5,716 bases of DNA, taken from the NCBI RefSeq assembly GCF_013315695.1, contig NZ_CP054357.1. One strand, given 5' to 3'. Position numbers and translations under genes: made by a program. Of the stretch, positions 1 through 5,716 are shown in pieces. The notes under the pieces are model-generated. The model saw only the letters and a list, made by a program, of their open reading frames with translations. It did no database searches and had not been told where the DNA came from. How positions within the stretch are numbered: position 1 is the first letter of the stretch; each line of letters begins with the position of its first letter. Source of the stretch: Escherichia coli. Lineage in GTDB: Bacteria > Pseudomonadota > Gammaproteobacteria > Enterobacterales > Enterobacteriaceae.

Positions 1-423
1 ACTATCGTCATGGCAATATCTCTTTTCGCGTTATCCTCAACATCCAGCACAGAACAACATTTTCACATTATAAAAATATTCGGTGGAGGCTATTTAATAT
101 ACATAGGATTAATGGGTTTAATTAATAAAAAAAACAAACAAAGAAAAGAGCAAAAACCTTTTTTGATACCATTATTAAACCCCAAGGCGTATCTTTTCTT
201 TGCTGCGTTAATACCAACCTTTATAGATAATAATACAAATATCACATTAAACTTTTTTATATTGGGTGTTTTATTTATATTTATATCATTCCTAACAGAT
301 CTTATTTACATAGCTATTAGCTTAACGATAAGGGATAAATTGACGCCATCATTCTCAAGATACATAAGCATATGTAGTTCCATTTTTATATTAGGTACAG
401 GTATTTATTTTATTTTTACGTGA
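1..423 (+). CDS. LysE/RhtB-family exporter, C-terminal ~140 codons; the frame is open from base 1, so the 5' end lies outside the linear window (it continues from 5567..5716 if the molecule is circular)
   Basis: The frame is open from position 1 (ACT ATC GTC ATG..), so the ATG at 10 is internal. The translation is highly hydrophobic with several predicted TM segments and the motif NPKAYLFFAALIPTFI, matching the conserved NPK..FL.ALFPQF region of RhtB/LysE-type translocators as I recall it. Stop TGA at 421-423. AT-rich codon usage. Confidence 0.75.
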   Translation, partial: TIVMAISLFALSSTSSTEQHFHIIKIFGGGYLIYIGLMGLINKKNKQRKEQKPFLIPLLNPKAYLFFAALIPTFIDNNTNITLNFFILGVLFIFISFLTDLIYIAISLTIRDKLTPSFSRYISICSSIFILGTGIYFIFT

Positions 424-437
424 AACGCCGTTTTTAT

Positions 438-471
438 ACTCATGCAGCCTTAGTCATAAGACGGCATGAGT
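438..471. terminator. Intergenic hairpin between convergent genes (possible weak bidirectional terminator)
   Basis: 8-bp inverted repeat ACTCATGC (438-445) / GCATGAGT (464-471) with an 18-nt loop, in the 57-bp gap between the exporter stop (423) and the stop of the minus-strand 238-aa ORF (481). A short T-run (431-435) lies upstream but there is no strong U-tract after the stem on either strand. Confidence 0.3.
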
Positions 472-480
472 TACTTAACA

Positions 481-1197
481 CTATTTCAGTATGGCATATT
501 TTTTATTTGGTGATTGTTCATTAAAATAATATCCGCTTTCGTCATCAACTAACACGCATGCTTTACGATAATCTCCACACTTCGAGAACTCGGCCAATGG
601 AGCTTTTTCTTTCCATTCTTTTAACATGGATTCATGTTTTTTCTGTTCTTCCATTAGCGAACTAATATTCATTTTGAGATATTCAGCATAGAAAACAGGA
701 GCGATCATTAGCAATAAAAATAATACAATCAACACAATTACCTTTTCGACAATCCTTGTTACTGTATACTTCTCCATTGTTTTTCTAATTATACCTGTCG
801 CAACTTCGGCCTCTCTGGTCGTCTGCTTTAATGATTCCTTTATCTCTTTACTTGTTTGCTCCTCGAAATCAACCCACTCTTTCTTTACATCATTGAGAGT
901 GAAAGATAATTTTTCGCGGAGTAATGACGTTAGTGTATCTGAGACTGATTTCTGTAATTTACAAGATGCCTCATCCATTCCTTTATTAATATAAAATTTA
1001 ACATTAGACACACTATCCCTAAAGGAATAAGAAATTCCAGAAACAACTTTACCTTCACGTTCAAGAGTACTTGTAAAGGTATTTAAGTCATTCACTCTTT
1101 CATTAAGCAGAGTAATTAGCCTGTTCATTTCTTTTATTTGTTTATCATTATACGCAACAAGAGCAGCAATTTTTCTTGAATGTTCATCCAATTGCAT
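481..1197 (-). CDS. Hypothetical membrane protein, 238 aa: N-terminal coiled-coil-like region, one TM helix, small Cys-containing C-terminal domain
   Basis: ORF with a GGAGG Shine-Dalgarno 9 nt upstream of the ATG at 1197, only 20 nt after the mobA stop. The N-terminal ~150 aa are rich in K/E/L/I with heptad-like spacing; one strongly hydrophobic segment (VIVLIVLFLLLMIAPVFYAEYL); the C-terminal ~60 aa contain CGDYRKAC. Clearly more AT-rich than adjacent mobA. I recognise no family. Confidence 0.7.
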   Translation of the reverse strand: MQLDEHSRKIAALVAYNDKQIKEMNRLITLLNERVNDLNTFTSTLEREGKVVSGISYSFRDSVSNVKFYINKGMDEASCKLQKSVSDTLTSLLREKLSFTLNDVKKEWVDFEEQTSKEIKESLKQTTREAEVATGIIRKTMEKYTVTRIVEKVIVLIVLFLLLMIAPVFYAEYLKMNISSLMEEQKKHESMLKEWKEKAPLAEFSKCGDYRKACVLVDDESGYYFNEQSPNKKYAILK

Positions 1198-1217
1198 AAA
1201 ATAAAAACCTCCAGTGC

Positions 1218-2303
1218 TTAACGGCTCATACCATAATCACGTGAACGTGATGGTGCTGGTGAGGAATACGCACGCTGGCGCACTCTTTCTCTTTCCCTCT
1301 CCAGGTCTCTTTGCTTTTCGGCTTCAATTAGTCGTTCCTGTTGCAACTTCCGCTCCTCTTCCACCTGGAATTGCTTCATCATTGAGTCCAGCGCACCGTT
1401 AATCAATGAATTAAGCTGCATTACCTCATTGAGTTCATCAAACGAGCTTTCAACAAACGCCTTCAATTCTGCCCCAAGCTCATCCAGGCTTGGTGGTATG
1501 TTATCCCGTTCAGCTAACGCTTCCTTCAAGGTCGTTTTAAGGTCAATGATGCTGTCCCGTTCCTGCTCTGCTTCTAGCTTCTCCCGTTCCGCGTTTCTCC
1601 GTGCCAGAATTGCACAAACCTGATCAGCATTCATAACAGCAACACGAACGGGACCAAGATGAACTTCCGGTGTGCGCTTGATACCCTGTTCTTTCAGTGA
1701 ACGATGATCAACGCGCGACTGATGGCCGTGCCGCGCAAGGTGTTCATTCTGCACATCAGCCCAGTGAGAACGTAGCGCAACCAAGGCTGATTTTCGCTCT
1801 TGTGGTGTCTCACCAAAGCGTGCCTTTTTTGCACCTCCCCGCTCCGGTGATTTGCTGTTGGCACGTTTAAAAAACTGCTGCGGATCGCGTTCAATACCAT
1901 CATTAATCCGCTCGCAAAACATGATATGTGCGTGTGGTTGTTCCTTTCCGTCGATTGCACCTGGCGGATTGTGGATCGCGTACTGATAGGCATGGCGATC
2001 ACCAAGCTCCTTTTGCACGAAATCTTCAACAAGTTCTATCCGTTGTTCGCGTGTCAGTTCTCGCGGTAATGCGATCTCAATTTCACGGTATGCCGTCCCG
2101 TTTTTTCGTTCAAATTCATCTGCTGCTTTCCATAGCTCTGCGGGATTTTTCTTCGCCCATGATGGCATGTTACCGGATGACGAAAATTCCAGATCCTCCC
2201 GCGATTTGTAGTTCTTATATTCGCCGGATCTAGAAATATAATCAGCATGTTTTAAGGCTACGCCTTTTGCTCCAGTTTTAACTGTACAATGGTAGCTTGC
2301 CAT
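1218..2303 (-). CDS. mobA: MobA relaxase, MOBQ family (RSF1010 MobA-like relaxase domain only, 361 aa)
   Basis: The N-terminus MASYHCTVKTGAKG...HADYISRSGEY parallels RSF1010 MobA (MAIYHLTAKTG...KADYIQREGKY, catalytic Tyr in the ADYI motif). It also carries EIEIALPREL and the histidine motif HAHIMFCERINDGIERDPQQFFKR (RSF1010: HCHLMISERINDGIERPAAQWFKR), then VDHRSLKEQGIKRTPEVHLGP. The C-terminus is ER-rich low complexity. Comparison is from memory of the RSF1010 sequence. Confidence 0.9.
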   Translation of the reverse strand: MASYHCTVKTGAKGVALKHADYISRSGEYKNYKSREDLEFSSSGNMPSWAKKNPAELWKAADEFERKNGTAYREIEIALPRELTREQRIELVEDFVQKELGDRHAYQYAIHNPPGAIDGKEQPHAHIMFCERINDGIERDPQQFFKRANSKSPERGGAKKARFGETPQERKSALVALRSHWADVQNEHLARHGHQSRVDHRSLKEQGIKRTPEVHLGPVRVAVMNADQVCAILARRNAEREKLEAEQERDSIIDLKTTLKEALAERDNIPPSLDELGAELKAFVESSFDELNEVMQLNSLINGALDSMMKQFQVEEERKLQQERLIEAEKQRDLERERERVRQRAYSSPAPSRSRDYGMSR

Positions 2304-2333
2304 CTGCCGTTAAGCCCTCCGCAGGAGCGCACT

Positions 2334-2387
2334 GTTTCTCGACGAAGGAGAGAAACGTCTAAGTGCGCATCCCTGAATTAATCAGGG
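2334..2387 (+). other. oriT: oriT (origin of transfer) with RSF1010-type nic region; predicted nick between 2367 and 2368 on the + strand
   Basis: Inverted repeat GTTTCTC (2334-2340) / GAGAAAC (2350-2356) followed by TAAGTGCGC (2361-2369). RSF1010 oriT, as I recall it, has GTTTCTCGAAGAGAAAC then GGTAAGTGCG^CCCT. A second small palindrome CCCTGA-ATTAA-TCAGGG follows at 2371-2387. It lies between divergent mobA and mobC, as in RSF1010. Confidence 0.7.
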
Positions 2388-2421
2388 ATGATTTTAAGGT
2401 CTCACACGCAGGCAGACAAGG

Positions 2422-2430
2422 TGATATTAT
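2422..2430 (+). promoter_or_regulatory. Putative extended -10 element (TGaTATTAT) for the mobC transcript
   Basis: TG at 2422-2423 followed by TATTAT at 2425-2430, about 45 nt upstream of the mobC start; no good -35 hexamer is seen. Sequence-pattern inference only. Confidence 0.3.
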
Positions 2431-2474
2431 GCACAATAACAACTCACATTAACGGCAAAAGTGCAGAGGTAAGA

Positions 2475-2921
2475 ATGACAAATCGTGAAGAGTGGTTAAG
2501 TGCAAAAATTGCCTATATCAACGGACTGAAATCACCGTCAGAGCAGCAAAGATTACTTGTGTTACTGGCAGAGAAAAAAAACCGAACAACGACGGATGAA
2601 AAAACGTTGTCCGCACTGATACGGGCAGAAAAAACCGCAGAGAAAGCAGCCGCAGCAAAAGCCAGGGTAACGGCAATAATAGCGGCAGAACGGAAGGCAG
2701 CCGCAAGGGCGGAACGAAAGGCGCGGGATCATGAACTCTACAAGGCCGCAGGCCTCATGATTGTGGCAGGACTGGTGGACAGCAAAACCGGAAAACCAAA
2801 GTTTAGTGCTGCCGAACTGGTAGGCGCACTCGCAGGAATCGCAGAGCTACCGCGCAACCATCCAAAATGGCAGGAATGGGAAAAACGCGGGAAAGAGCTA
2901 CTCACCAAAGACAGTGCGTAA
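2475..2921 (+). CDS. mobC: MobC / TraD-like relaxosome accessory protein (148 aa from the ATG at 2475)
   Basis: Divergent from mobA across oriT. SD GAGGT sits 4 nt upstream of the ATG at 2475. An Ala/Lys/Arg/Glu-rich helical region (AEKAAAAKARVTAIIAAERKAAARAERKARDHE) is followed by a hydrophobic stretch (LYKAAGLMIVAGLVD), which resembles the RSF1010 MobC pattern (..ERKNETRRKVLVGAMILAKV..) from memory. The upstream in-frame ATG at 2388 lies inside the oriT palindrome and lacks a convincing SD. Confidence 0.7.
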   Translation: MTNREEWLSAKIAYINGLKSPSEQQRLLVLLAEKKNRTTTDEKTLSALIRAEKTAEKAAAAKARVTAIIAAERKAAARAERKARDHELYKAAGLMIVAGLVDSKTGKPKFSAAELVGALAGIAELPRNHPKWQEWEKRGKELLTKDSA

Positions 2922-2949
2922 GAGCCTCCGTTCACGTTCCGGTTCCCTG

Positions 2950-3003
2950 GTGCTTCCTCGCTCATTCGCTCGCTACGCTCGGTCATTGAGACTGCGGCGA
3001 GCA
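2950..3003. other. ssi / primosome-assembly-site-like element (ColE1 PAS-like)
   Basis: TGCTTCCTCGCTCATTCGCTCGCTACGCTCGGTCATTGAGACTGCGGCGAGC closely resembles the ColE1/pBR322 segment GCTTCCTCGCTCACTGACTCGCTGCGCTCGGTCGTTCGGCTGCGGCGAGC (from memory), which lies in the ColE1 primosome assembly region. Its function here is inferred. Confidence 0.45.
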
Positions 3004-3078
3004 CAACCACCACTCACACACAGACGCTAAAACCATTGCCAAACGAAACACGGGAAATCACCCCAAACCTACCCGCTC

Positions 3079-3097
3079 AAAAAAACGCCTACAGGCG
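3079..3097 (-). terminator. Short hairpin plus T7 run just beyond the ori (possible rep transcript terminator)
   Basis: The minus strand reads CGCCTGTAGGCG followed by TTTTTTT (plus-strand A-run 3079-3085). The stem is only 4 bp, so this is weak. Confidence 0.3.
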
Positions 3098-3130
3098 CTG
3101 TTATCTGATAAGGCTTGTTATCTGGTCTCA
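3090..3130 (-). other. ori: ColE2-type replication origin (Rep binding and priming site) immediately 3' of rep
   Basis: The minus strand reads AAAATGAGACCAGATAACAAGCCTTATCAGATAACAGCGCCTGT, with CAGATAACA repeated. This matches my recollection of the ColE2-P9 minimal origin (TGAGACCAGATAAGCCTTATCAGATAACAGCGCC). The rep stop codon TGA (3128-3130) is the first triplet of this element. Confidence 0.7.
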
Positions 3131-4057
3131 TTTTGCGAGATCTGGATCACATTTTAGTTTTCGATAGTATGTGGCACGACTGATCCCTAACGTCACCCAC
3201 GGCTTCAGAGTTCGTGCCGATGTGGCAACGGCTACACGCTTTGATTTCTGACCTTTAATAGCCTGATTTTCTGATGAATTTGCATTACCGCCCTTACGAC
3301 CTCGAGCAGCCTGTACCGCGGAAAAGCCTTCAGGAGAGAATTTGCGGTAGGTGTATTTCGCAATACTCTTGCCAATAGCCCGACATTCAGCCGGAGAAAG
3401 CGGAACGGGAAGCGATGCGTTGTACATTTCGACACGCTGAATCACTGCATCAAGCCACGGTGAGAATGCTGGCCAGCCCTGACGAATCGCCCTGTAAGAC
3501 CATTTACGGCCCTTTTCGAACAGATACCAGTTTCGCCCCATCCCGTAATCTTTATCGACGCGACGGCGCGCTGAGGCGCTCAAATCAAGATAATCCGCCA
3601 GTTCGTCGAGGGTATAGAGTTCCCAACGCCATTCCACCACCTGCCATTCCTGGTGGAACGGATTTTTGCAGATCAGGCCGCTGTAGTTCACATCCGCGCC
3701 CAGTTTTTCACACAGCGCACGCTCAATCACGGCAGCGTATTTGAGCGCCGAAGCCGATGCATCCGGCGCGGTTCTCACCGGAAGAGTGAGCGCGTAGAGC
3801 AGATGCGCGTGCCCGTTACGTGGATTTTTTACGGTGATGTTCGGGGCCGGACAGTTCCGGTCGCTCCAGTCGATCGCTGCCCCCGTCCGGTCAACGTCAA
3901 AGGCCAGCCAGTGCTGCGCATGTGGCTGGTTCTGCTGGATGAAACGGGCAAGGATGGCGATATCTTTCGGTAGAATGCGAACGCCGTACGTGAAATCGTT
4001 CGTACAGTACGGTTTGTGCGGTAATTTTTCCCTGAAGAGTTGAAGTACGGCGCTCAT
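3128..4057 (-). CDS. rep: ColE2/ColE3-family replication initiator Rep (plasmid-specific primase), 309 aa
   Basis: Translation MSAVLQLFREKLPHKPYCTNDFTYGVRILPKDIAILARFIQQNQPHAQHWLAFDVDRTGAAIDWSDRNCPAPNITVKNPRNGHAHLLYAL... is near-identical over long stretches to ColE2-P9 Rep as I remember it. GGAGG sits 12 nt upstream of the ATG, and the cognate ori-like sequence lies directly downstream. Confidence 0.9.
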   Translation of the reverse strand: MSAVLQLFREKLPHKPYCTNDFTYGVRILPKDIAILARFIQQNQPHAQHWLAFDVDRTGAAIDWSDRNCPAPNITVKNPRNGHAHLLYALTLPVRTAPDASASALKYAAVIERALCEKLGADVNYSGLICKNPFHQEWQVVEWRWELYTLDELADYLDLSASARRRVDKDYGMGRNWYLFEKGRKWSYRAIRQGWPAFSPWLDAVIQRVEMYNASLPVPLSPAECRAIGKSIAKYTYRKFSPEGFSAVQAARGRKGGNANSSENQAIKGQKSKRVAVATSARTLKPWVTLGISRATYYRKLKCDPDLAK

Positions 4058-4155
4058 GTGTTAGGATTTCCTCCGTGTGTTACGACCCACACGCCCCTTG
4101 AATTTTCGTGACAGTCTTGGCGGATCGGCACGAATTTCAGGGGCGTTTGTTTTTC
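4040..4155 (+). ncRNA. Candidate antisense RNA I (copy-number control RNA complementary to the rep mRNA leader); boundaries approximate
   Basis: Plus-strand promoter-like elements TTGAAG (4040-4045), 16-nt spacer, TAGGAT (4062-4067), overlapping the rep start codon. A long imperfect hairpin plus T-run ends at about 4155. ColE2 replicons are known to use an antisense RNA of about 115 nt against the rep leader. With this promoter the transcript would be about 80 nt, so the true 5' end is uncertain. Confidence 0.45.
4094..4155 (+). terminator. Rho-independent terminator-like hairpin plus T-run (3' end of candidate RNA I; same structure in complement forms the rep leader stem-loop)
   Basis: Left arm CCCCTTGAATTTTCGTG (4094-4110), right arm CACGAATTTCAGGGG (4129-4143), imperfect with one or two bulges and an 18-nt loop, followed by CGTTTGTTTTTC (4144-4155). 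Confidence 0.5.
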
Positions 4156-4163
4156 AGTTGGTT

Positions 4164-4192
4164 ACACTACACCCAACGGCAAATCCTGTCGA
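4164..4192 (-). promoter_or_regulatory. Putative rep promoter (minus strand: -35 TCGACA, 17-nt spacer, -10 TAGTGT)
   Basis: Reverse complement of 4187-4192 is TCGACA and of 4164-4169 is TAGTGT, separated by 17 nt. The predicted start near 4157 would give a ~100-nt rep leader fully covered by the candidate RNA I. Pattern-based only. Confidence 0.3.
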
Positions 4193-4213
4193 TCCTTCCC
4201 GAAAACCAGACCC

Positions 4214-4241
4214 ATTTACCATAACTCCTCTTGTACGTACC
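4214..4241 (-). other. XerC/XerD core recombination site (cer/psi-like multimer resolution site)
   Basis: The minus strand reads GGTACGTACAA-GAGGAG-TTATGGTAAAT. The XerD arm is identical to ColE1 cer (TTATGGTAAAT) and the XerC arm differs from cer (GGTGCGTACAA) at one position; the central region is 6 bp, as in dif and psi rather than cer's 8 bp. Accessory sequences would extend to about 4430 on the XerC side. Confidence 0.65.
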
Positions 4242-4342
4242 CTCTAAAACGCTCTCAATCGCTTTCTGACGCAAAAAACTCAAAAAGACAAGATAAACCT
4301 AGGGAAAACACAAAAAACGCGTCAGAATCGTTTTTAGGGGTC

Positions 4343-4356
4343 TGCATAACTATGCA
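4343..4356. promoter_or_regulatory. Perfect palindrome TGCATA-AC-TATGCA: candidate ARG box (ArgR accessory site) for the cer-like site
   Basis: 14-bp perfect palindrome about 120 bp from the XerCD core on the XerC side. It resembles the ARG-box half-sites (TGAAT....ATTCA) with an A-to-C substitution; cer-type sites require ArgR and PepA binding about 100 bp from the core. Confidence 0.35.
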
Positions 4357-4481
4357 CAAAAGCGATTAATGATCGGTTTCACCCCTTCAGAAGCGCGAAC
4401 TGGTCAAAACAGCAAACTTTCTCATCCAGAAAGCCAGCTGAACTAACCCGCATGAAAACAAATTTCCAAACATATCCAGTC

Positions 4482-4508
4482 TGGACAACGAAATATCGAC
4501 AATATAAA
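4482..4508 (+). promoter_or_regulatory. Putative sigma70 promoter for the cargo operon (-35 TGGACA, 15-nt spacer, -10 TATAAA)
   Basis: TGGACA at 4482-4487 and TATAAA at 4503-4508, about 100 nt upstream of the ATG at 4610. The spacer is short; pattern-based only. Confidence 0.3.
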
Positions 4509-4609
4509 ACATCATAATCGTGTTTATGGCGTGTAAAAAAGCTTACAAGAGAATTAGCATTGAAGAGTCATAACAACAAATTCCAAAAATCAAACCAGAG
4601 GATAGGAAA

Positions 4610-5560
4610 ATGAATAATTTTATAAATGAATGTATTTCCGCTCCGAGAATAAACGGCATGGCAGAATTTTTCTCATCAACTGCATCAGGGGAAAAACACA
4701 AACCTTTTAGACTAGTAGAAATAGATGATCGGCTTTTTCATTCTTATGATTACATTAAGTTTGCCAAACACCTCACAAAAAACAGCGGCCCTTTCGTTAA
4801 TCATTATTTTTGCAGTATACCATACAGCAAGGAAGAAGAGTGCAGATTAGGAACAACAGTAATAAAATACGCAATCACGCTAAACAAAAAATTAAACACA
4901 TGGTGTCTTGGTATGGCTGAGGGCGCAATGGCAAGAACCATTTCAGAATTATCAAAAGGAAACATACAAACATTAACAACCAGTCCAACAAAAGAAAATG
5001 AACATGCATTTTTTAAGTATAGCTCAAGTGAAAACGCTTATTTTATTTGCACTCCATTTTTCCTGTTAGAGGAAAGACTAAAAAATTCAAATCTTAAACA
5101 ATTTAATCAAGGATTCGATATTATAATAGAAGACACCACATTTCAAATGTACTCACCTAACAGATCTGGGCAAATAAACCACGTAAAAAGGCTATTAAAT
5201 AATGATGGTATTTTCATATTTACAGAAAAACATAGTTCAGAACATGATGAATATCAAAAAAGAGAAATCCAAAAAGATTATTCATTCAAACAAAGGTATT
5301 TCTCGAAAGATGAGATTAACACCAAAAAGGAAATCGTACTAAACACAATGAATTTGAATGAAGTTAGTGTTGACGATATGCTTTCCGCAATTAAACAACA
5401 TTTTAAATACGCATCAATATATTGGAATAGCGGAAATTTTTACTCAATCGCCGCCAGCAATTCACTAAAACACATATCAACATTTATAAATTTATTACCG
5501 AAAGCTGCAATTCCTATGGAATATGTATATGAAAAGCTCCCACGAAATATATCATGGTAA
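4610..5560 (+). CDS. Hypothetical protein, 316 aa; possible class I SAM-dependent methyltransferase-like Rossmann core (tentative)
   Basis: SD AGAGGA 7 nt upstream of the ATG; AT-rich. The central region has MTase-like motif spacing: LGMAEGAMARTI (glycine-rich, motif I-like), then about 65 aa later FDIIIEDTTF (motif II-like), then VKRLLNNDGIFIFTE (motif III-like). No canonical GxGxG and no (D/N/S)PP(Y/F) DNA-MTase motif. Stop TAA at 5558-5560. Confidence 0.75.
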   Translation: MNNFINECISAPRINGMAEFFSSTASGEKHKPFRLVEIDDRLFHSYDYIKFAKHLTKNSGPFVNHYFCSIPYSKEEECRLGTTVIKYAITLNKKLNTWCLGMAEGAMARTISELSKGNIQTLTTSPTKENEHAFFKYSSSENAYFICTPFFLLEERLKNSNLKQFNQGFDIIIEDTTFQMYSPNRSGQINHVKRLLNNDGIFIFTEKHSSEHDEYQKREIQKDYSFKQRYFSKDEINTKKEIVLNTMNLNEVSVDDMLSAIKQHFKYASIYWNSGNFYSIAASNSLKHISTFINLLPKAAIPMEYVYEKLPRNISW

Positions 5561-5566
5561 GTAAAC

Positions 5567-5716
5567 ATGGAATATTCAACATTATTATCATTTGCTATCG
5601 TAACCTTATCGCAAACTATATCAATAGGGCCTGGCGTTGCATTGGTTATAAACAATGCCTTTTCACATGGATTAAAGTCATCAATAAAAACAAGTATATA
5701 CATAAGAATTGGCGAG
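5567..5716 (+). CDS. LysE/RhtB-family exporter, N-terminal 50 codons; 3' end runs off the window (continues at 1..423 if circular)
   Basis: ATG at 5567, 6 nt after the stop of the 316-aa gene. MEYSTLLSFAIVTLSQTISIGPGVALVINNAFSHGLKSSIKTSIYIRIGE has the hydrophobic N-terminus and S-x-GPG motif typical of LysE/RhtB translocators (RhtB: ..[20 protein letters not shown]..). There is no stop before the window end, and the window ends exactly on a codon boundary. Confidence 0.75.
   Translation, partial: MEYSTLLSFAIVTLSQTISIGPGVALVINNAFSHGLKSSIKTSIYIRIGE

What the first reader, a model, noticed from the sequence alone, without database searches (positions are those of the whole stretch)
424..4609. 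ColE2-type replicon lacking any colicin, immunity or lysis genes
Classical ColE2/ColE3-group plasmids carry a colicin, immunity and lysis operon. This backbone span holds only replication, mobilization and resolution functions, and the cargo outside it has no nuclease-colicin or immunity-like ORF. The usual cargo position is occupied by the three novel AT-rich genes.
Basis: partly seen in the sequence, partly recalled or inferred. Interest (0 to 1): 0.45.

Follow-up and report, generated by a model that had tools for sequence, protein, structure and literature searches.

The report
Colicin-free ColE2-type mobilizable plasmid
The window is a complete, already-sequenced 5.7-kb E. coli/Salmonella plasmid that replicates like the colicin plasmid ColE2 but carries no colicin genes, which is common for this replicon type; its only unexplained part is a small enzyme-plus-exporter gene pair.

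Summary
The window is a complete circular 5,716-bp plasmid, 100% identical to several E. coli and Salmonella records. Its replicon is ColE2-type:
- Rep is 86% identical to ColE2-P9 Rep.
- The ori lies directly after the rep stop codon.
- The antisense-RNA hairpin and the cer-like Xer site are conserved.

No colicin, immunity or lysis gene, SOS box or degenerate remnant was found by tblastn, DNA comparison or HMM scans of every reading-frame segment of at least 30 aa.

The implied oddity does not hold. Colicin-free ColE2-like plasmids are published (pUB6060, pHW66, pMUT2, pChi7122-4). Five of six sampled ColE2-type plasmids also lack colicin genes.

This plasmid is a mosaic. Only the replicon resembles ColE2-P9; the relaxase is 31% identical.

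The "three novel AT-rich genes" resolve differently:
- A 238-aa membrane protein appears linked to MobA.
- A two-gene cargo consists of a CmoA-like SAM-dependent methyltransferase-fold enzyme and a LysE-family exporter that wraps the window ends.

The same enzyme–exporter pair recurs in Pectobacterium, Citrobacter and Klebsiella. Its function is unknown; the most likely role is modification and export of a small metabolite.

As stated, the finding is ordinary and already known.

The parts
3128..4057 (-). rep: ColE2-type replication initiator (primase), 309 aa
   Evidence: Pfam Replicase PF03090 at E 6e-42, plus a weak PriCT_1 hit. It is 86% identical to ColE2-P9 Rep over the full length. It carries a 12-aa insertion in the C-terminal linker relative to ColE2-P9.
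3094..3129 (-). ori: ColE2-type origin, overlapping and following the rep stop codon
   Evidence: The sequence GAGACCAGATAACAAGCCTTATCAGATAACAGCGCC occurs once. It aligns with the ColE2-P9 sequence in the same position and carries a 3-bp insertion. The location of the 32-bp ori downstream of rep is taken from PMC6856555.
4091..4157 (+). Candidate antisense RNAI hairpin and terminator, complementary to the rep mRNA leader
   Evidence: A long hairpin with a CUUGGCG loop is followed by a U-run. It aligns with the ColE2-P9 leader region, with changes on both arms and a conserved loop. There is a weak Rfam PK-repBA-like hit at 4095-4143, E 0.95, which is not significant on its own.
4214..4241 (-). 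cer-like XerC/XerD core site (multimer resolution)
   Evidence: The sequence GGTACGTACAAGAGGAGTTATGGTAAAT occurs once. It is conserved with ColE2-P9, which reads GGGGCGTACAACGGGAGTTATGGTAAAT. PMC6856555 and PMC2831885 report cer-like or XerCD sites in ColE2-like plasmids. The match to the cer/dif arms themselves is from my own knowledge.
4242..4432 (-). Conserved region upstream of the cer-like core, possibly the accessory sequences; the edge of the backbone
   Evidence: Homology with ColE2-P9 ends at window 4423. Homology with the cargo-less plasmid L016 ends at 4432.
2475..2921 (+). TraD-like relaxase accessory protein, 148 aa as annotated in RefSeq
   Evidence: Pfam TraD PF06412 at E 2e-8. 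RefSeq annotates it as WP_000184722.1. It is transcribed divergently from mobA and is 100% identical to the L016 protein.
2327..2376 (+). oriT candidate: the inverted repeat GTTTCTC-N9-GAGAAAC followed by GTCTAAGTGCGCATCCCT
   Evidence: About 60 bp here is 92-95% identical in hundreds of small enterobacterial plasmids, including colicin plasmids. The resemblance to the RSF1010 oriT/nic layout is from memory.
1218..2303 (-). mobA: MOBQ relaxase, 361 aa
   Evidence: Pfam MobA_MobL at E 9e-38 and NCBIfam MobQ at E 8e-29. Identity is 31% to ColE2-P9 MobA, 51% to Col156-type MobA and 82% to L016 MobA.
481..1197 (-). 238-aa coiled-coil protein with one transmembrane helix, AT-rich, 20 bp downstream of mobA; probably a mobilization-module partner
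   Evidence: It matches no family. A single TM segment is predicted at residues 144-177. Its few relatives also lie directly downstream of MobA genes on other small plasmids: P0137 at 47% identity and P0142 at 34% identity over the aligned part.
4610..5560 (+). Cargo gene 1: CmoA-like class I SAM-dependent methyltransferase-fold enzyme, 316 aa
   Evidence: NCBIfam CmoA TIGR00740 at E 6e-6 and phrog_4752 at E 7e-11. The AlphaFold model has pLDDT 93.2. Foldseek's best hits are CmoA 4gek/4iwn/1im8 at E about 2e-9. The family is conserved at 43-56% identity in Rhizobiaceae and enterobacteria.
5567..5716 (+). Cargo gene 2, N-terminal part: LysE/RhtB-family exporter (190 aa in all, continues at position 1)
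   Evidence: RefSeq annotates a 573-bp LysE CDS that crosses the window ends. The full protein scores Pfam LysE at E 5e-20. About five hydrophobic segments are predicted.
1..423 (+). Cargo gene 2, C-terminal part: LysE/RhtB-family exporter
   Evidence: Pfam LysE at E 1.3e-13 for the fragment. NCBIfam homoserine/threonine efflux TIGR00949 at E 1.4e-17.

Best explanation
The window is a small mosaic plasmid that is mobilizable and replicates in the theta mode. It is built from three modules.

(1) A ColE2-type replicon. Rep, a plasmid-specific primase, acts at the ori directly after its own stop codon. Copy number is set by an antisense RNA against the rep leader. Host XerCD resolves multimers at a cer-like site. 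This mechanism is inferred from homology to ColE2-P9; none of it was tested here.

(2) A MOBQ mobilization module. It comprises the mobA relaxase, a divergently transcribed TraD-like accessory gene, an RSF1010-like oriT between the two, and a 238-aa membrane protein that travels with mobA.

(3) A variable cargo slot between the end of the mob module and the cer region. ColE2-P9 and pGZM7g carry the colicin-immunity-lysis operon in the equivalent position. A cargo-less relative (L016) carries no called gene there. This plasmid carries a 1.76-kb AT-rich cassette with two genes, a CmoA-like SAM-dependent methyltransferase-fold enzyme and a LysE-family exporter.

The absence of colicin genes is therefore an ordinary consequence of module shuffling among ColE2-type plasmids. 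It is not a decayed colicin plasmid.

The most likely role of the cassette, which is inference only, is that the enzyme modifies a small amino-acid-like metabolite using SAM and the LysE protein exports it. Whether that means producing a secreted compound or detoxifying one is unresolved.
For: Complete circular plasmid: many records are identical.

Replicon:
- Homology to ColE2-P9 is confined to positions 2674-4139, corresponding to window 4423-2952.
- Rep is 86% identical to ColE2-P9 Rep.
- The ori, the cer-like site and the antisense hairpin are all conserved.

No colicin, immunity or lysis genes were found, with a working positive control.

Mosaicism:
- MobA is 31% identical to the ColE2-P9 MobA and 82% identical to the L016 MobA.
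- L016 is a circular plasmid of about 4.55 kb with the same Rep-TraD-MobA-240aa backbone and no cassette. Its homology to the window stops at 4432 and at about 1124.
- The AT-rich block occurs only in about 31-33 PLSDB records of this plasmid family. It is found in 19 of 5,426 complete E. coli genomes, always on plasmids.

Colicin-free ColE2-type plasmids are common (PMC2831885, PMC11056357, PMC3251573).

Cassette:
- The enzyme-LysE pair is adjacent or overlapping in Pectobacterium, Citrobacter and Klebsiella.
- The structure model is confident and the fold is a class I methyltransferase nearest to CmoA.
- The exporter is most similar to homoserine/threonine-type efflux proteins.
Against: - Nothing about replication, mobilization or cassette function was tested experimentally.
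- The enzyme's substrate is unknown. At the sequence level the family profile finds no solved structure.
- The usual acidic residue at the end of strand 2 of SAM-dependent methyltransferases appears to be replaced by Ser-Pro (by eye), so SAM use itself is not certain.
- In Rhizobiales the enzyme is paired with a soluble protein of about 465 aa with unknown function and an AraC regulator, not with LysE. The exporter link is therefore specific to the enterobacterial lineage.
- The role of the 238-aa protein in mobilization rests only on gene adjacency in three contexts.
Confidence: 0.85

Rival explanations
1. The plasmid is a degenerate descendant of a ColE2/E3-group colicin plasmid in which the colicin operon decayed in place, leaving remnants.
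For: The replicon is closely related to ColE2-P9. The cargo lies on the same side of rep as the colicin operon does in ColE2-P9.
Against: No protein, DNA or HMM similarity to colicin, immunity or lysis genes was found. There is no SOS box and no lipoprotein-like ORF. Homology to ColE2-P9 stops about 130 bp past the lysis gene. The mob module is only distantly related, with MobA at 31% identity. The cargo operon is transcribed away from rep, opposite to the colicin operon.
Confidence: 0.03
2. The enzyme-plus-LysE cassette is a functional substitute for a colicin. It synthesises and secretes a small SAM-derived or methylated antimetabolite or signal that gives the host a competitive or communication advantage, with the exporter doubling as self-protection.
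For: The pair occupies the colicin slot. The two genes are tightly linked or overlapping in four enterobacterial genera and usually lie on or next to mobile elements. LysE/RhtB exporters move amino acids and homoserine-lactone-like compounds (NCBIfam hits). The closest structural relatives include small-molecule and natural-product methyltransferases such as CysG/BelI and the plantazolicin MTase. The S. meliloti homologue sits in what looks like a biosynthetic cluster with an ATP-grasp enzyme, an oxidoreductase and a PPDK-like enzyme.
Against: No product, phenotype or regulator is known. A single enzyme is a thin biosynthetic pathway. Natural variants of the plasmid have lost the enzyme gene but kept LysE, which would be odd if the exporter existed only for self-protection. 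No conserved precursor ORF lies upstream.
Confidence: 0.15
3. The cassette is a detoxification or resistance module. The enzyme methylates a toxic amino-acid analogue or other small toxicant from plant or gut sources, and LysE expels it.
For: The family is found in plant-associated bacteria (Rhizobium, Agrobacterium, Mesorhizobium, Pectobacterium) and in gut enterobacteria. Pairing a methyltransferase with an efflux protein is a common detoxification logic (my inference). AraC or LysR regulators flank the enzyme gene in Rhizobiales.
Against: No substrate is known. There is no similarity to characterised detoxifying methyltransferases above the level of general fold.
Confidence: 0.25
4. The 316-aa enzyme acts on nucleic acid, through tRNA modification in the manner of the CmoA pathway or through DNA/RNA methylation for anti-restriction, and its adjacency to LysE is incidental.
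For: The best sequence and structure matches are to CmoA, which belongs to the tRNA cmo5U pathway. phrog_4752, annotated 'tRNA methyltransferase', matches at E 7e-11.
Against: CmoA itself makes a small molecule (carboxy-SAM) and does not act on tRNA directly; this is from established knowledge (Kim et al. 2013, recalled). The LysE pairing is conserved across four genera, with overlapping stop and start codons in two of them. The CmoA Arg that aligns with residue 240 here is not conserved in the family. That mapping uses an assumed 14-residue tag offset, so it is tentative.
Confidence: 0.08

Closest known systems
pColE2-P9 (NZ_KY348421.1) and the ColE2/ColE3 group of nuclease-colicin plasmids (MOBQ42 lineage)
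   Same: Rep is 86% identical. The ori sits directly after the rep stop codon. The antisense-RNA leader hairpin and the cer-like site are conserved. A convergent mob accessory gene follows the ori, and mobA and the accessory gene are divergently transcribed around oriT.
   Different: There is no colicin-immunity-lysis operon and no SOS box. The relaxase is only 31% identical, and the accessory protein is unrelated at the sequence level. Rep carries a 12-aa insertion and the ori a 3-bp insertion. PLSDB assigns a different rep cluster, 2141 against 2150.
Colicin-free ColE2-like / Col156-type small plasmids (pEc631_4, the 5.16-kb Col156 plasmids, pMUT2, pUB6060, pHW66, pChi7122-4)
   Same: They combine a ColE2-type Rep and ori with a mobilization module and miscellaneous or cryptic cargo, and carry no colicin (PMC2831885, PMC11056357, PMC3251573).
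   Different: The mob modules differ: MobA is 51% identical in Col156-type plasmids, and pMUT2, pHW66 and pUB6060 have ColE1-type mob. The cargo also differs. None of the sampled plasmids carries the CmoA-like/LysE cassette.
Cargo-less 4.55-kb plasmid (L016/L017, metagenome assemblies) and pS143-5
   Same: L016/L017 share the Rep-TraD-MobA-240aa backbone. TraD is 100% identical, MobA 82%, and the 240-aa partner 46-47%. pS143-5 shares the mob module: its MobA is 90% identical over the N-terminal 241 residues and its TraD 99%.
   Different: Neither carries the enzyme/LysE cassette. Rep is about 76% identical in both.
p838C-R1 (NC_019062.1)
   Same: It has the same backbone and cargo at 96.8% identity.
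   Different: A Tn21-like resistance transposon of about 24 kb is inserted in the cargo region. The Rep linker is +4 aa and the ori spacer +1 nt relative to ColE2-P9.
CmoA (carboxy-SAM synthase; PDB 4gek, 4iwn, 1im8)
   Same: It has the class I SAM-dependent fold with the C-terminal helical region. It is the best structural match and a weak sequence match.
   Different: Identity is only 12-15%. The window protein has an extra helical N-terminal region of about 90 aa. The family profile finds no PDB sequence at E <= 0.001. Its partner is a LysE exporter rather than CmoB.

Membership tests
ColE2-type (ColE2-P9-related) replicon | Rep initiator of the PF03090 Replicase family with a PriCT region, closely related to ColE2-P9 Rep | tested here: met
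   PF03090 at E 6e-42, with a weak PriCT_1 hit at E 0.009. Rep is 86% identical to ColE2-P9 Rep over the full length.
ColE2-type (ColE2-P9-related) replicon | Short origin (about 32 bp) located immediately downstream of rep and matching the ColE2 ori sequence | tested here: met
   Window 3094-3129 aligns with the ColE2-P9 sequence in the same position. It is identical apart from a 3-bp insertion. The ori position is taken from PMC6856555.
ColE2-type (ColE2-P9-related) replicon | Antisense RNAI complementary to the 5' untranslated region of rep mRNA | tested here: inconclusive
   A hairpin with a conserved CUUGGCG loop, changes on both stem arms and a U-tail lies at 4091-4157 (+), in the position homologous to the ColE2-P9 leader. 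The folding z-score is only -1.5. Transcription was not tested, and no Rfam family exists for this RNA.
ColE2-type (ColE2-P9-related) replicon | cer-like XerCD multimer resolution site | tested here: met
   The 28-bp core at 4214-4241 is conserved with ColE2-P9. Function was not tested.
ColE2-type (ColE2-P9-related) replicon | Rep-synthesised primer and DNA polymerase I-dependent initiation | not testable with these tools
   This is a biochemical property.
Group A nuclease-colicin plasmid (col-imm-lys operon) | Colicin structural gene | tested here: not met
   tblastn gives a best E of 0.45. No colicin or cloacin family appears among the listed Pfam or NCBIfam matches for the 91 segments.
Group A nuclease-colicin plasmid (col-imm-lys operon) | Immunity gene | tested here: not met
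   tblastn with Im2 gives a best E of 0.30. No immunity family was found. The positive control detects Im9 at 60% identity.
Group A nuclease-colicin plasmid (col-imm-lys operon) | Lysis lipoprotein gene and SOS (LexA) boxes | tested here: not met
   The lysis protein gives a best E of 1.2 and no hit at E <= 10 with default settings. No lipobox-bearing small ORF was found. The single LexA-box-like match has one mismatch, lies inside rep, and is within chance expectation.
MOBQ42 plasmids (ColE2 replicon plus ColE9-J-type relaxase; PMC6856555) | Relaxase belonging to the ColE9-J/ColE2 MobA clade | tested here: not met
   MobA is only 31% identical to ColE2-P9 and pGZM7g MobA over the relaxase domain. 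No phylogeny was built.
MOBQ42 plasmids (ColE2 replicon plus ColE9-J-type relaxase; PMC6856555) | Divergent mobA and accessory gene with oriT between them | tested here: met
   mobA is at 1218-2303 (-) and traD at 2475-2921 (+). The inverted repeat and nic-like motif lie at 2327-2376.
CmoA (carboxy-SAM synthase) family | Sequence match at the family's curated level | tested here: not met
   TIGR00740 scores only E 6e-6 and PRK15451 only E 0.0017. PDB CmoA scores E 0.024. The family profile finds no PDB sequence.
CmoA (carboxy-SAM synthase) family | Class I SAM-dependent fold with the CmoA-like C-terminal region | tested here: met
   The model has pLDDT 93.2. The top Foldseek hits are CmoA structures at E about 2e-9, with TM 0.66 relative to the target.
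CmoA (carboxy-SAM synthase) family | Conserved Arg that binds the carboxylate of carboxy-SAM | tested here: inconclusive
   In the pairwise alignment the CmoA Arg (chain residue 213) aligns with K240, and this column varies across the family. The residue identity depends on a recalled numbering offset.
LysE/RhtB exporter family | Pfam LysE domain above the gathering score, and a multi-pass membrane protein of about 200 aa | tested here: met
   PF01810 scores E 5e-20 for the full 190-aa protein. The fragment scores 51.4 bits against a cut-off of 25.6. About five hydrophobic segments are predicted.

The most novel reading that the evidence does not exclude
The colicin slot of this ColE2-type plasmid is occupied by a mobile two-gene cassette, a CmoA-like SAM-dependent enzyme plus a LysE exporter, that makes and secretes a previously unknown small molecule. 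That molecule could be an antimetabolite or a signal derived from SAM or from a methylated amino acid. If so, it would be a small-molecule counterpart of a bacteriocin module, and the same enzyme family would do related chemistry on mobile elements in Rhizobiaceae and Pectobacterium.
Probability: 0.15. Interest if true: 0.55.

Novelty: already known. Interest (0 to 1): 0.15.

Why it matters
As stated, the finding matters little. It confirms that ColE2-type replicons are modular and often carry no colicin, which is documented, and this exact plasmid has been deposited many times.

Three by-products have modest value:
- The map of the variable cargo slot is clear: window 4433 through the origin to about 480.
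- Rep-linker length and ori-spacer length co-vary, which may mark a new Rep-ori specificity type.
- A conserved, uncharacterised enzyme-exporter cassette sits on mobile elements in gut and plant-associated bacteria. It is a tractable target for function discovery.

Tried and rejected
- Rfam, evalue mode: the only hit was a non-significant PK-repBA-like match at the antisense hairpin.
- PADLOC: weak hits were AbiZ at E 6.5e-4 and a type I S subunit for the 238-aa protein, and mad2 for the enzyme. I dismissed them as coiled-coil or generic methyltransferase similarity with partial coverage.
- Promoter and terminator scan: counts were at the shuffle expectation. The only meaningful site is the hairpin right after the ori.
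- LexA-box search: consistent with chance.
- Lipobox scan for lysis-like ORFs: none found.
- Word-indexed homologue search for the 238-aa protein: only near-identical copies. The exhaustive search was needed to find the three useful remote relatives.
- Pfam scan of the Rhizobial partner proteins of about 465 aa: nothing. Hydropathy shows they are soluble, so the idea of 'always an exporter partner' was rejected.
- Search for a conserved small precursor ORF upstream of the enzyme gene: no conservation, so a RiPP-like reading is not supported.
- Family profile against PDB sequences: no hits.
- Literature on p838C-R1: only passing mentions, with no description of the backbone.

Full report
**What the window is.** The 5,716-base window is a complete circular plasmid. 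It matches, end to end and at 100% identity, records of exactly 5,716 bp from Salmonella London (NZ_CP082933.1) and E. coli (CP056318.1, NZ_CP124378.1, CP077345.1). It also matches about a dozen more at 99.4% identity or better, and variants at 92-97%. PLSDB types it as mobilizable, MOBQ, rep_cluster_2141. Because the molecule is circular, one gene crosses the window ends: RefSeq annotates a 573-bp LysE-family CDS that corresponds to window 5567-5716 plus 1-423. All later scans therefore used the circularised sequence.

**Checking the replicon.**
- I fetched pColE2-P9 itself (NZ_KY348421.1, L002), using an immunity-protein sequence as bait.
- DNA homology between the two plasmids is confined to one block. 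ColE2-P9 positions 2674-4139 correspond to window 4423-2952, at 82.5% identity over 1,507 columns.
- Rep (window 3128-4057, minus strand) is 86% identical to ColE2-P9 Rep over its whole length (E 3e-180). It scores Pfam PF03090 at E 6e-42.
- The alignment shows the ori directly after the rep stop codon. The window sequence TGAGACCAGATAACAAGCCTTATCAGATAACAGCGCC (ori mapped at 3094-3129) is identical to ColE2-P9 apart from a 3-bp insertion.
- A cer-like XerC/D core, GGTACGTACAAGAGGAGTTATGGTAAAT (4214-4241), is conserved with ColE2-P9.
- A long hairpin in the rep leader, on the strand opposite rep (4091-4146, followed by a U-run), has a conserved CUUGGCG loop and differences on both arms relative to ColE2-P9. 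This is what the antisense RNAI described for ColE2 plasmids would look like (PMC6856555).
- The replicon call is therefore confirmed. The RNAI element rests on homology only.

**Checking the absence of colicin genes.**
- tblastn with colicin E2, Im2 and the lysis protein against the circular window gave best E-values of 0.45, 0.30 and 1.2.
- The same queries detect the colicin E9 operon in pGZM7g at 93% (colicin), 60% (immunity) and 98% (lysis) identity. This is the positive control.
- I extracted all stop-to-stop reading-frame segments of at least 30 aa from the circular molecule, 94 in all. I scanned 91 of them, leaving out three that are fragments fully contained in wrapped segments.
- Both Pfam and NCBIfam were searched at E <= 1. 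The listed matches were Replicase, MobA_MobL/Relaxase, TraD, LysE, weak methyltransferase hits and noise. No colicin, cloacin, immunity or lysis family appeared. The 9 Pfam and 2 NCBIfam families the tool did not list all have E > 0.16.
- There is no LexA box beyond chance and no small ORF with a lipoprotein signal.
- Homology to ColE2-P9 ends about 130 bp beyond its lysis gene, so no 3' remnant is present.

**Is that unusual? No.**
- Published ColE2-like plasmids without colicins include pHW66 and pUB6060 (PMC2831885), pMUT2 of E. coli Nissle (PMC11056357) and pChi7122-4 (PMC3251573).
- In PLSDB, 3,072 records encode a relative of this Rep and about 1,160 reach at least 60% identity. Many of these plasmids are only 4-5 kb.
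- I sampled six complete small plasmids whose Rep is 75-90% identical to ColE2-P9 Rep. Only pGZM7g (colicin E9) has the operon.
- The other five have none, by annotation and by tblastn. They are pEc631_4 (Rep 90% identical to ColE2-P9 and in the same rep cluster), two Col156-type plasmids of 5.2-5.5 kb, a 4.0-kb plasmid and pS143-5.
MOBQ42 means the ColE2 replicon combined with the ColE9-J-type relaxase.
- This plasmid is not of that lineage. Its MobA is only 31% identical to the ColE2-P9 and pGZM7g relaxases. It is 51% identical to the Col156-type MobA, 82% to that of a cargo-less relative, and 90% over the N-terminal 241 residues to pS143-5.
- It is a mosaic that shares only the replicon with ColE2-P9.

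**The mobilization module.**
- mobA (1218-2303, minus strand; MobA_MobL E 9e-38, MobQ E 8e-29) and a TraD-like accessory gene (2475-2921, plus strand; PF06412) are transcribed divergently.
- Between them lies an inverted repeat, GTTTCTC-N9-GAGAAAC, followed by GTCTAAGTGCGCATCCCT. From memory this matches the RSF1010-type MOBQ oriT/nic arrangement.
- About 60 bp here is 92-95% identical in hundreds of small enterobacterial plasmids, including colicin plasmids.
- The AT-rich 238-aa ORF (481-1197) starts 20 bp after the mobA stop codon. It is predicted to have an N-terminal coiled coil (judged by eye), one transmembrane helix (residues 144-177) and a short C-terminal domain.
- It matches no family and has almost no relatives. 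The few it has also lie directly downstream of MobA genes. P0137 (47% identity) is on a circular plasmid of about 4.55 kb with a Rep-TraD-MobA-240aa layout (L016/L017). P0142 (34% identity over the aligned part) follows a different MobA.
- I therefore assign the 238-aa gene provisionally to the mob module.

**The cargo slot.**
- Comparison with the cargo-less plasmid L016 puts the backbone edges at window 4432 on one side and within the 238-aa gene region on the other.
- The cargo is therefore window 4433 through the origin to about 480. This is roughly 1.76 kb at about 30% GC.
- It carries two co-oriented genes transcribed away from rep: a 316-aa protein (4610-5560) and the LysE exporter, which starts 7 bp later.
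- This block occurs only in about 31-33 PLSDB records, all of this plasmid family. It is found in 19 of 5,426 complete E. coli genomes, never on a chromosome.
- Natural variants of 4.96-5.24 kb have lost most of the enzyme gene but keep LysE.
- p838C-R1 has a Tn21-like resistance transposon of about 24 kb inserted in the cargo.

**What the cargo is.**
- The 316-aa protein has weak sequence matches to CmoA (TIGR00740 E 6e-6; PDB 4gek E 0.024) and to a phage 'tRNA methyltransferase' family (E 7e-11).
- It belongs to a well-conserved, uncharacterised family. Members are 43-56% identical in Rhizobium, Agrobacterium, Mesorhizobium, Sinorhizobium, Pectobacterium, Citrobacter and Klebsiella. Strongly conserved motifs include SIPYxxEE, AEGxMAR, EDTTFQMYS and WNSGNF.
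- An AlphaFold model built on that alignment is confident (pLDDT 93.2, pTM 0.92). The fold is a class I SAM-dependent methyltransferase with an extra helical N-terminal region.
- The nearest solved structures are CmoA (4gek, 4iwn, 1im8; E about 2e-9). Next come small-molecule methyltransferases such as CysG/BelI and the plantazolicin N-methyltransferase.
- It is not a CmoA orthologue. Identity is 12-15%, the family profile finds no PDB sequence, and the residue aligned to the carboxy-SAM-binding arginine of CmoA is not conserved. That mapping is tentative.
- In Pectobacterium brasiliense, Citrobacter werkmanii and Klebsiella michiganensis the enzyme gene is immediately followed, or overlapped, by a LysE gene. 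The pair often sits next to conjugation or mobilization genes.
- In Rhizobiales the partner is different. There the enzyme lies with a soluble protein of about 465 aa with unknown function and an AraC regulator, again near T4SS genes in Mesorhizobium and R. rhizogenes.
- No conserved small ORF lies upstream in the enterobacterial loci.
- My best inference is that the enterobacterial cassette modifies a small amino-acid-like compound using SAM and exports it. I cannot tell whether that serves production or detoxification.

**Verdict.** However, a colicin-free ColE2-type replicon is a documented and common arrangement, and this exact plasmid is already in the databases many times. The finding as written is ordinary. 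The only open biology is the function of the enzyme-LysE cassette and of the MobA-linked 238-aa protein, plus a possible new Rep-ori specificity type.

Noticed in passing
window 3094-3129 (ori) and 3128-3330 (Rep C-terminus); L023 and L002 for comparison: The Rep C-terminal linker length and the ori spacer length co-vary. ColE2-P9 has GRKGG-TKSKR with CAGAT-AAGCC. p838C-R1 has +4 aa with +1 nt. The window has +12 aa (NANSSENQAIKGQ) with +3 nt (CAGATAACAAGCC). From memory, this resembles the ColE2/ColE3 specificity determinants, an indel in Rep region A paired with a 1-nt indel in the ori. It may define a separate Rep-ori specificity or incompatibility type.
   Followed up: partly
window 4610-5560 and 5567-423; L003 6001-7588, L007 6001-7565, L022 6001-7568: A conserved two-gene cassette, a CmoA-like SAM-fold enzyme plus a LysE exporter, recurs in Pectobacterium, Citrobacter, Klebsiella and this plasmid. 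It usually lies on or beside mobile elements, and its function is unknown.
   Followed up: partly
L019 15-8730 (Sinorhizobium meliloti contig): The Rhizobial homologue of the enzyme sits downstream of ATP-grasp, FAD-oxidoreductase and PPDK-like genes and a 48-aa ORF. It is followed by a 98-aa membrane protein and a 463-aa protein with no Pfam match. This looks like an uncharacterised biosynthetic cluster.
   Followed up: partly
window 481-1197 (-); L016 880-1602; L018 1077-1661: A near-orphan family of coiled-coil, single-TM proteins is always encoded directly downstream of MobA/MobL relaxase genes on small plasmids. It may be an unrecognised mobilization accessory protein.
   Followed up: partly
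L023 (NC_019062.1, p838C-R1) 5724-30016: The same backbone carries a Tn21-like transposon of about 24 kb inserted into the cargo region. The transposon includes TnAs1, intI1-aadA1-qacEdelta1-sul1, a mer operon and TEM-1. This small plasmid family can therefore act as a vehicle for multiresistance.
   Followed up: no
NZ_CP053240.1 (5689 bp) and NZ_CP053241.1 (5237 bp), both from E. coli SCU-106: One strain carries two related plasmids of this family. One has the full cassette (96.7% identical to the window). The other has most of the enzyme gene deleted (91.4% identical). This suggests the two variants are compatible.
   Followed up: no
window 2310-2372: A stretch of about 60 bp at the candidate oriT is 92-95% identical in several hundred small enterobacterial plasmids whose relaxases are only 31-51% identical. 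These include colicin plasmids of 6.08 and 6.23 kb. This recalls the oriT cross-recognition reported for MOBQ4 plasmids (PMC6856555).
   Followed up: no
window 2388-2474: The longest ORF for the TraD-like gene starts at 2388 (177 aa), but RefSeq annotates the start at 2475 (148 aa). The extra 29 codons would overlap the oriT-proximal region, and I did not resolve the true start.
   Followed up: no
L022 287-4469 (Klebsiella michiganensis): Near the enzyme-LysE pair, on the opposite strand and separated from it by one 306-aa gene, lies an AfsA-like, acyl-carrier-protein, ketoacyl-synthase and aldo-keto-reductase cluster. This is gamma-butyrolactone-type signalling chemistry, inside what looks like an integrative conjugative element.
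   Followed up: no
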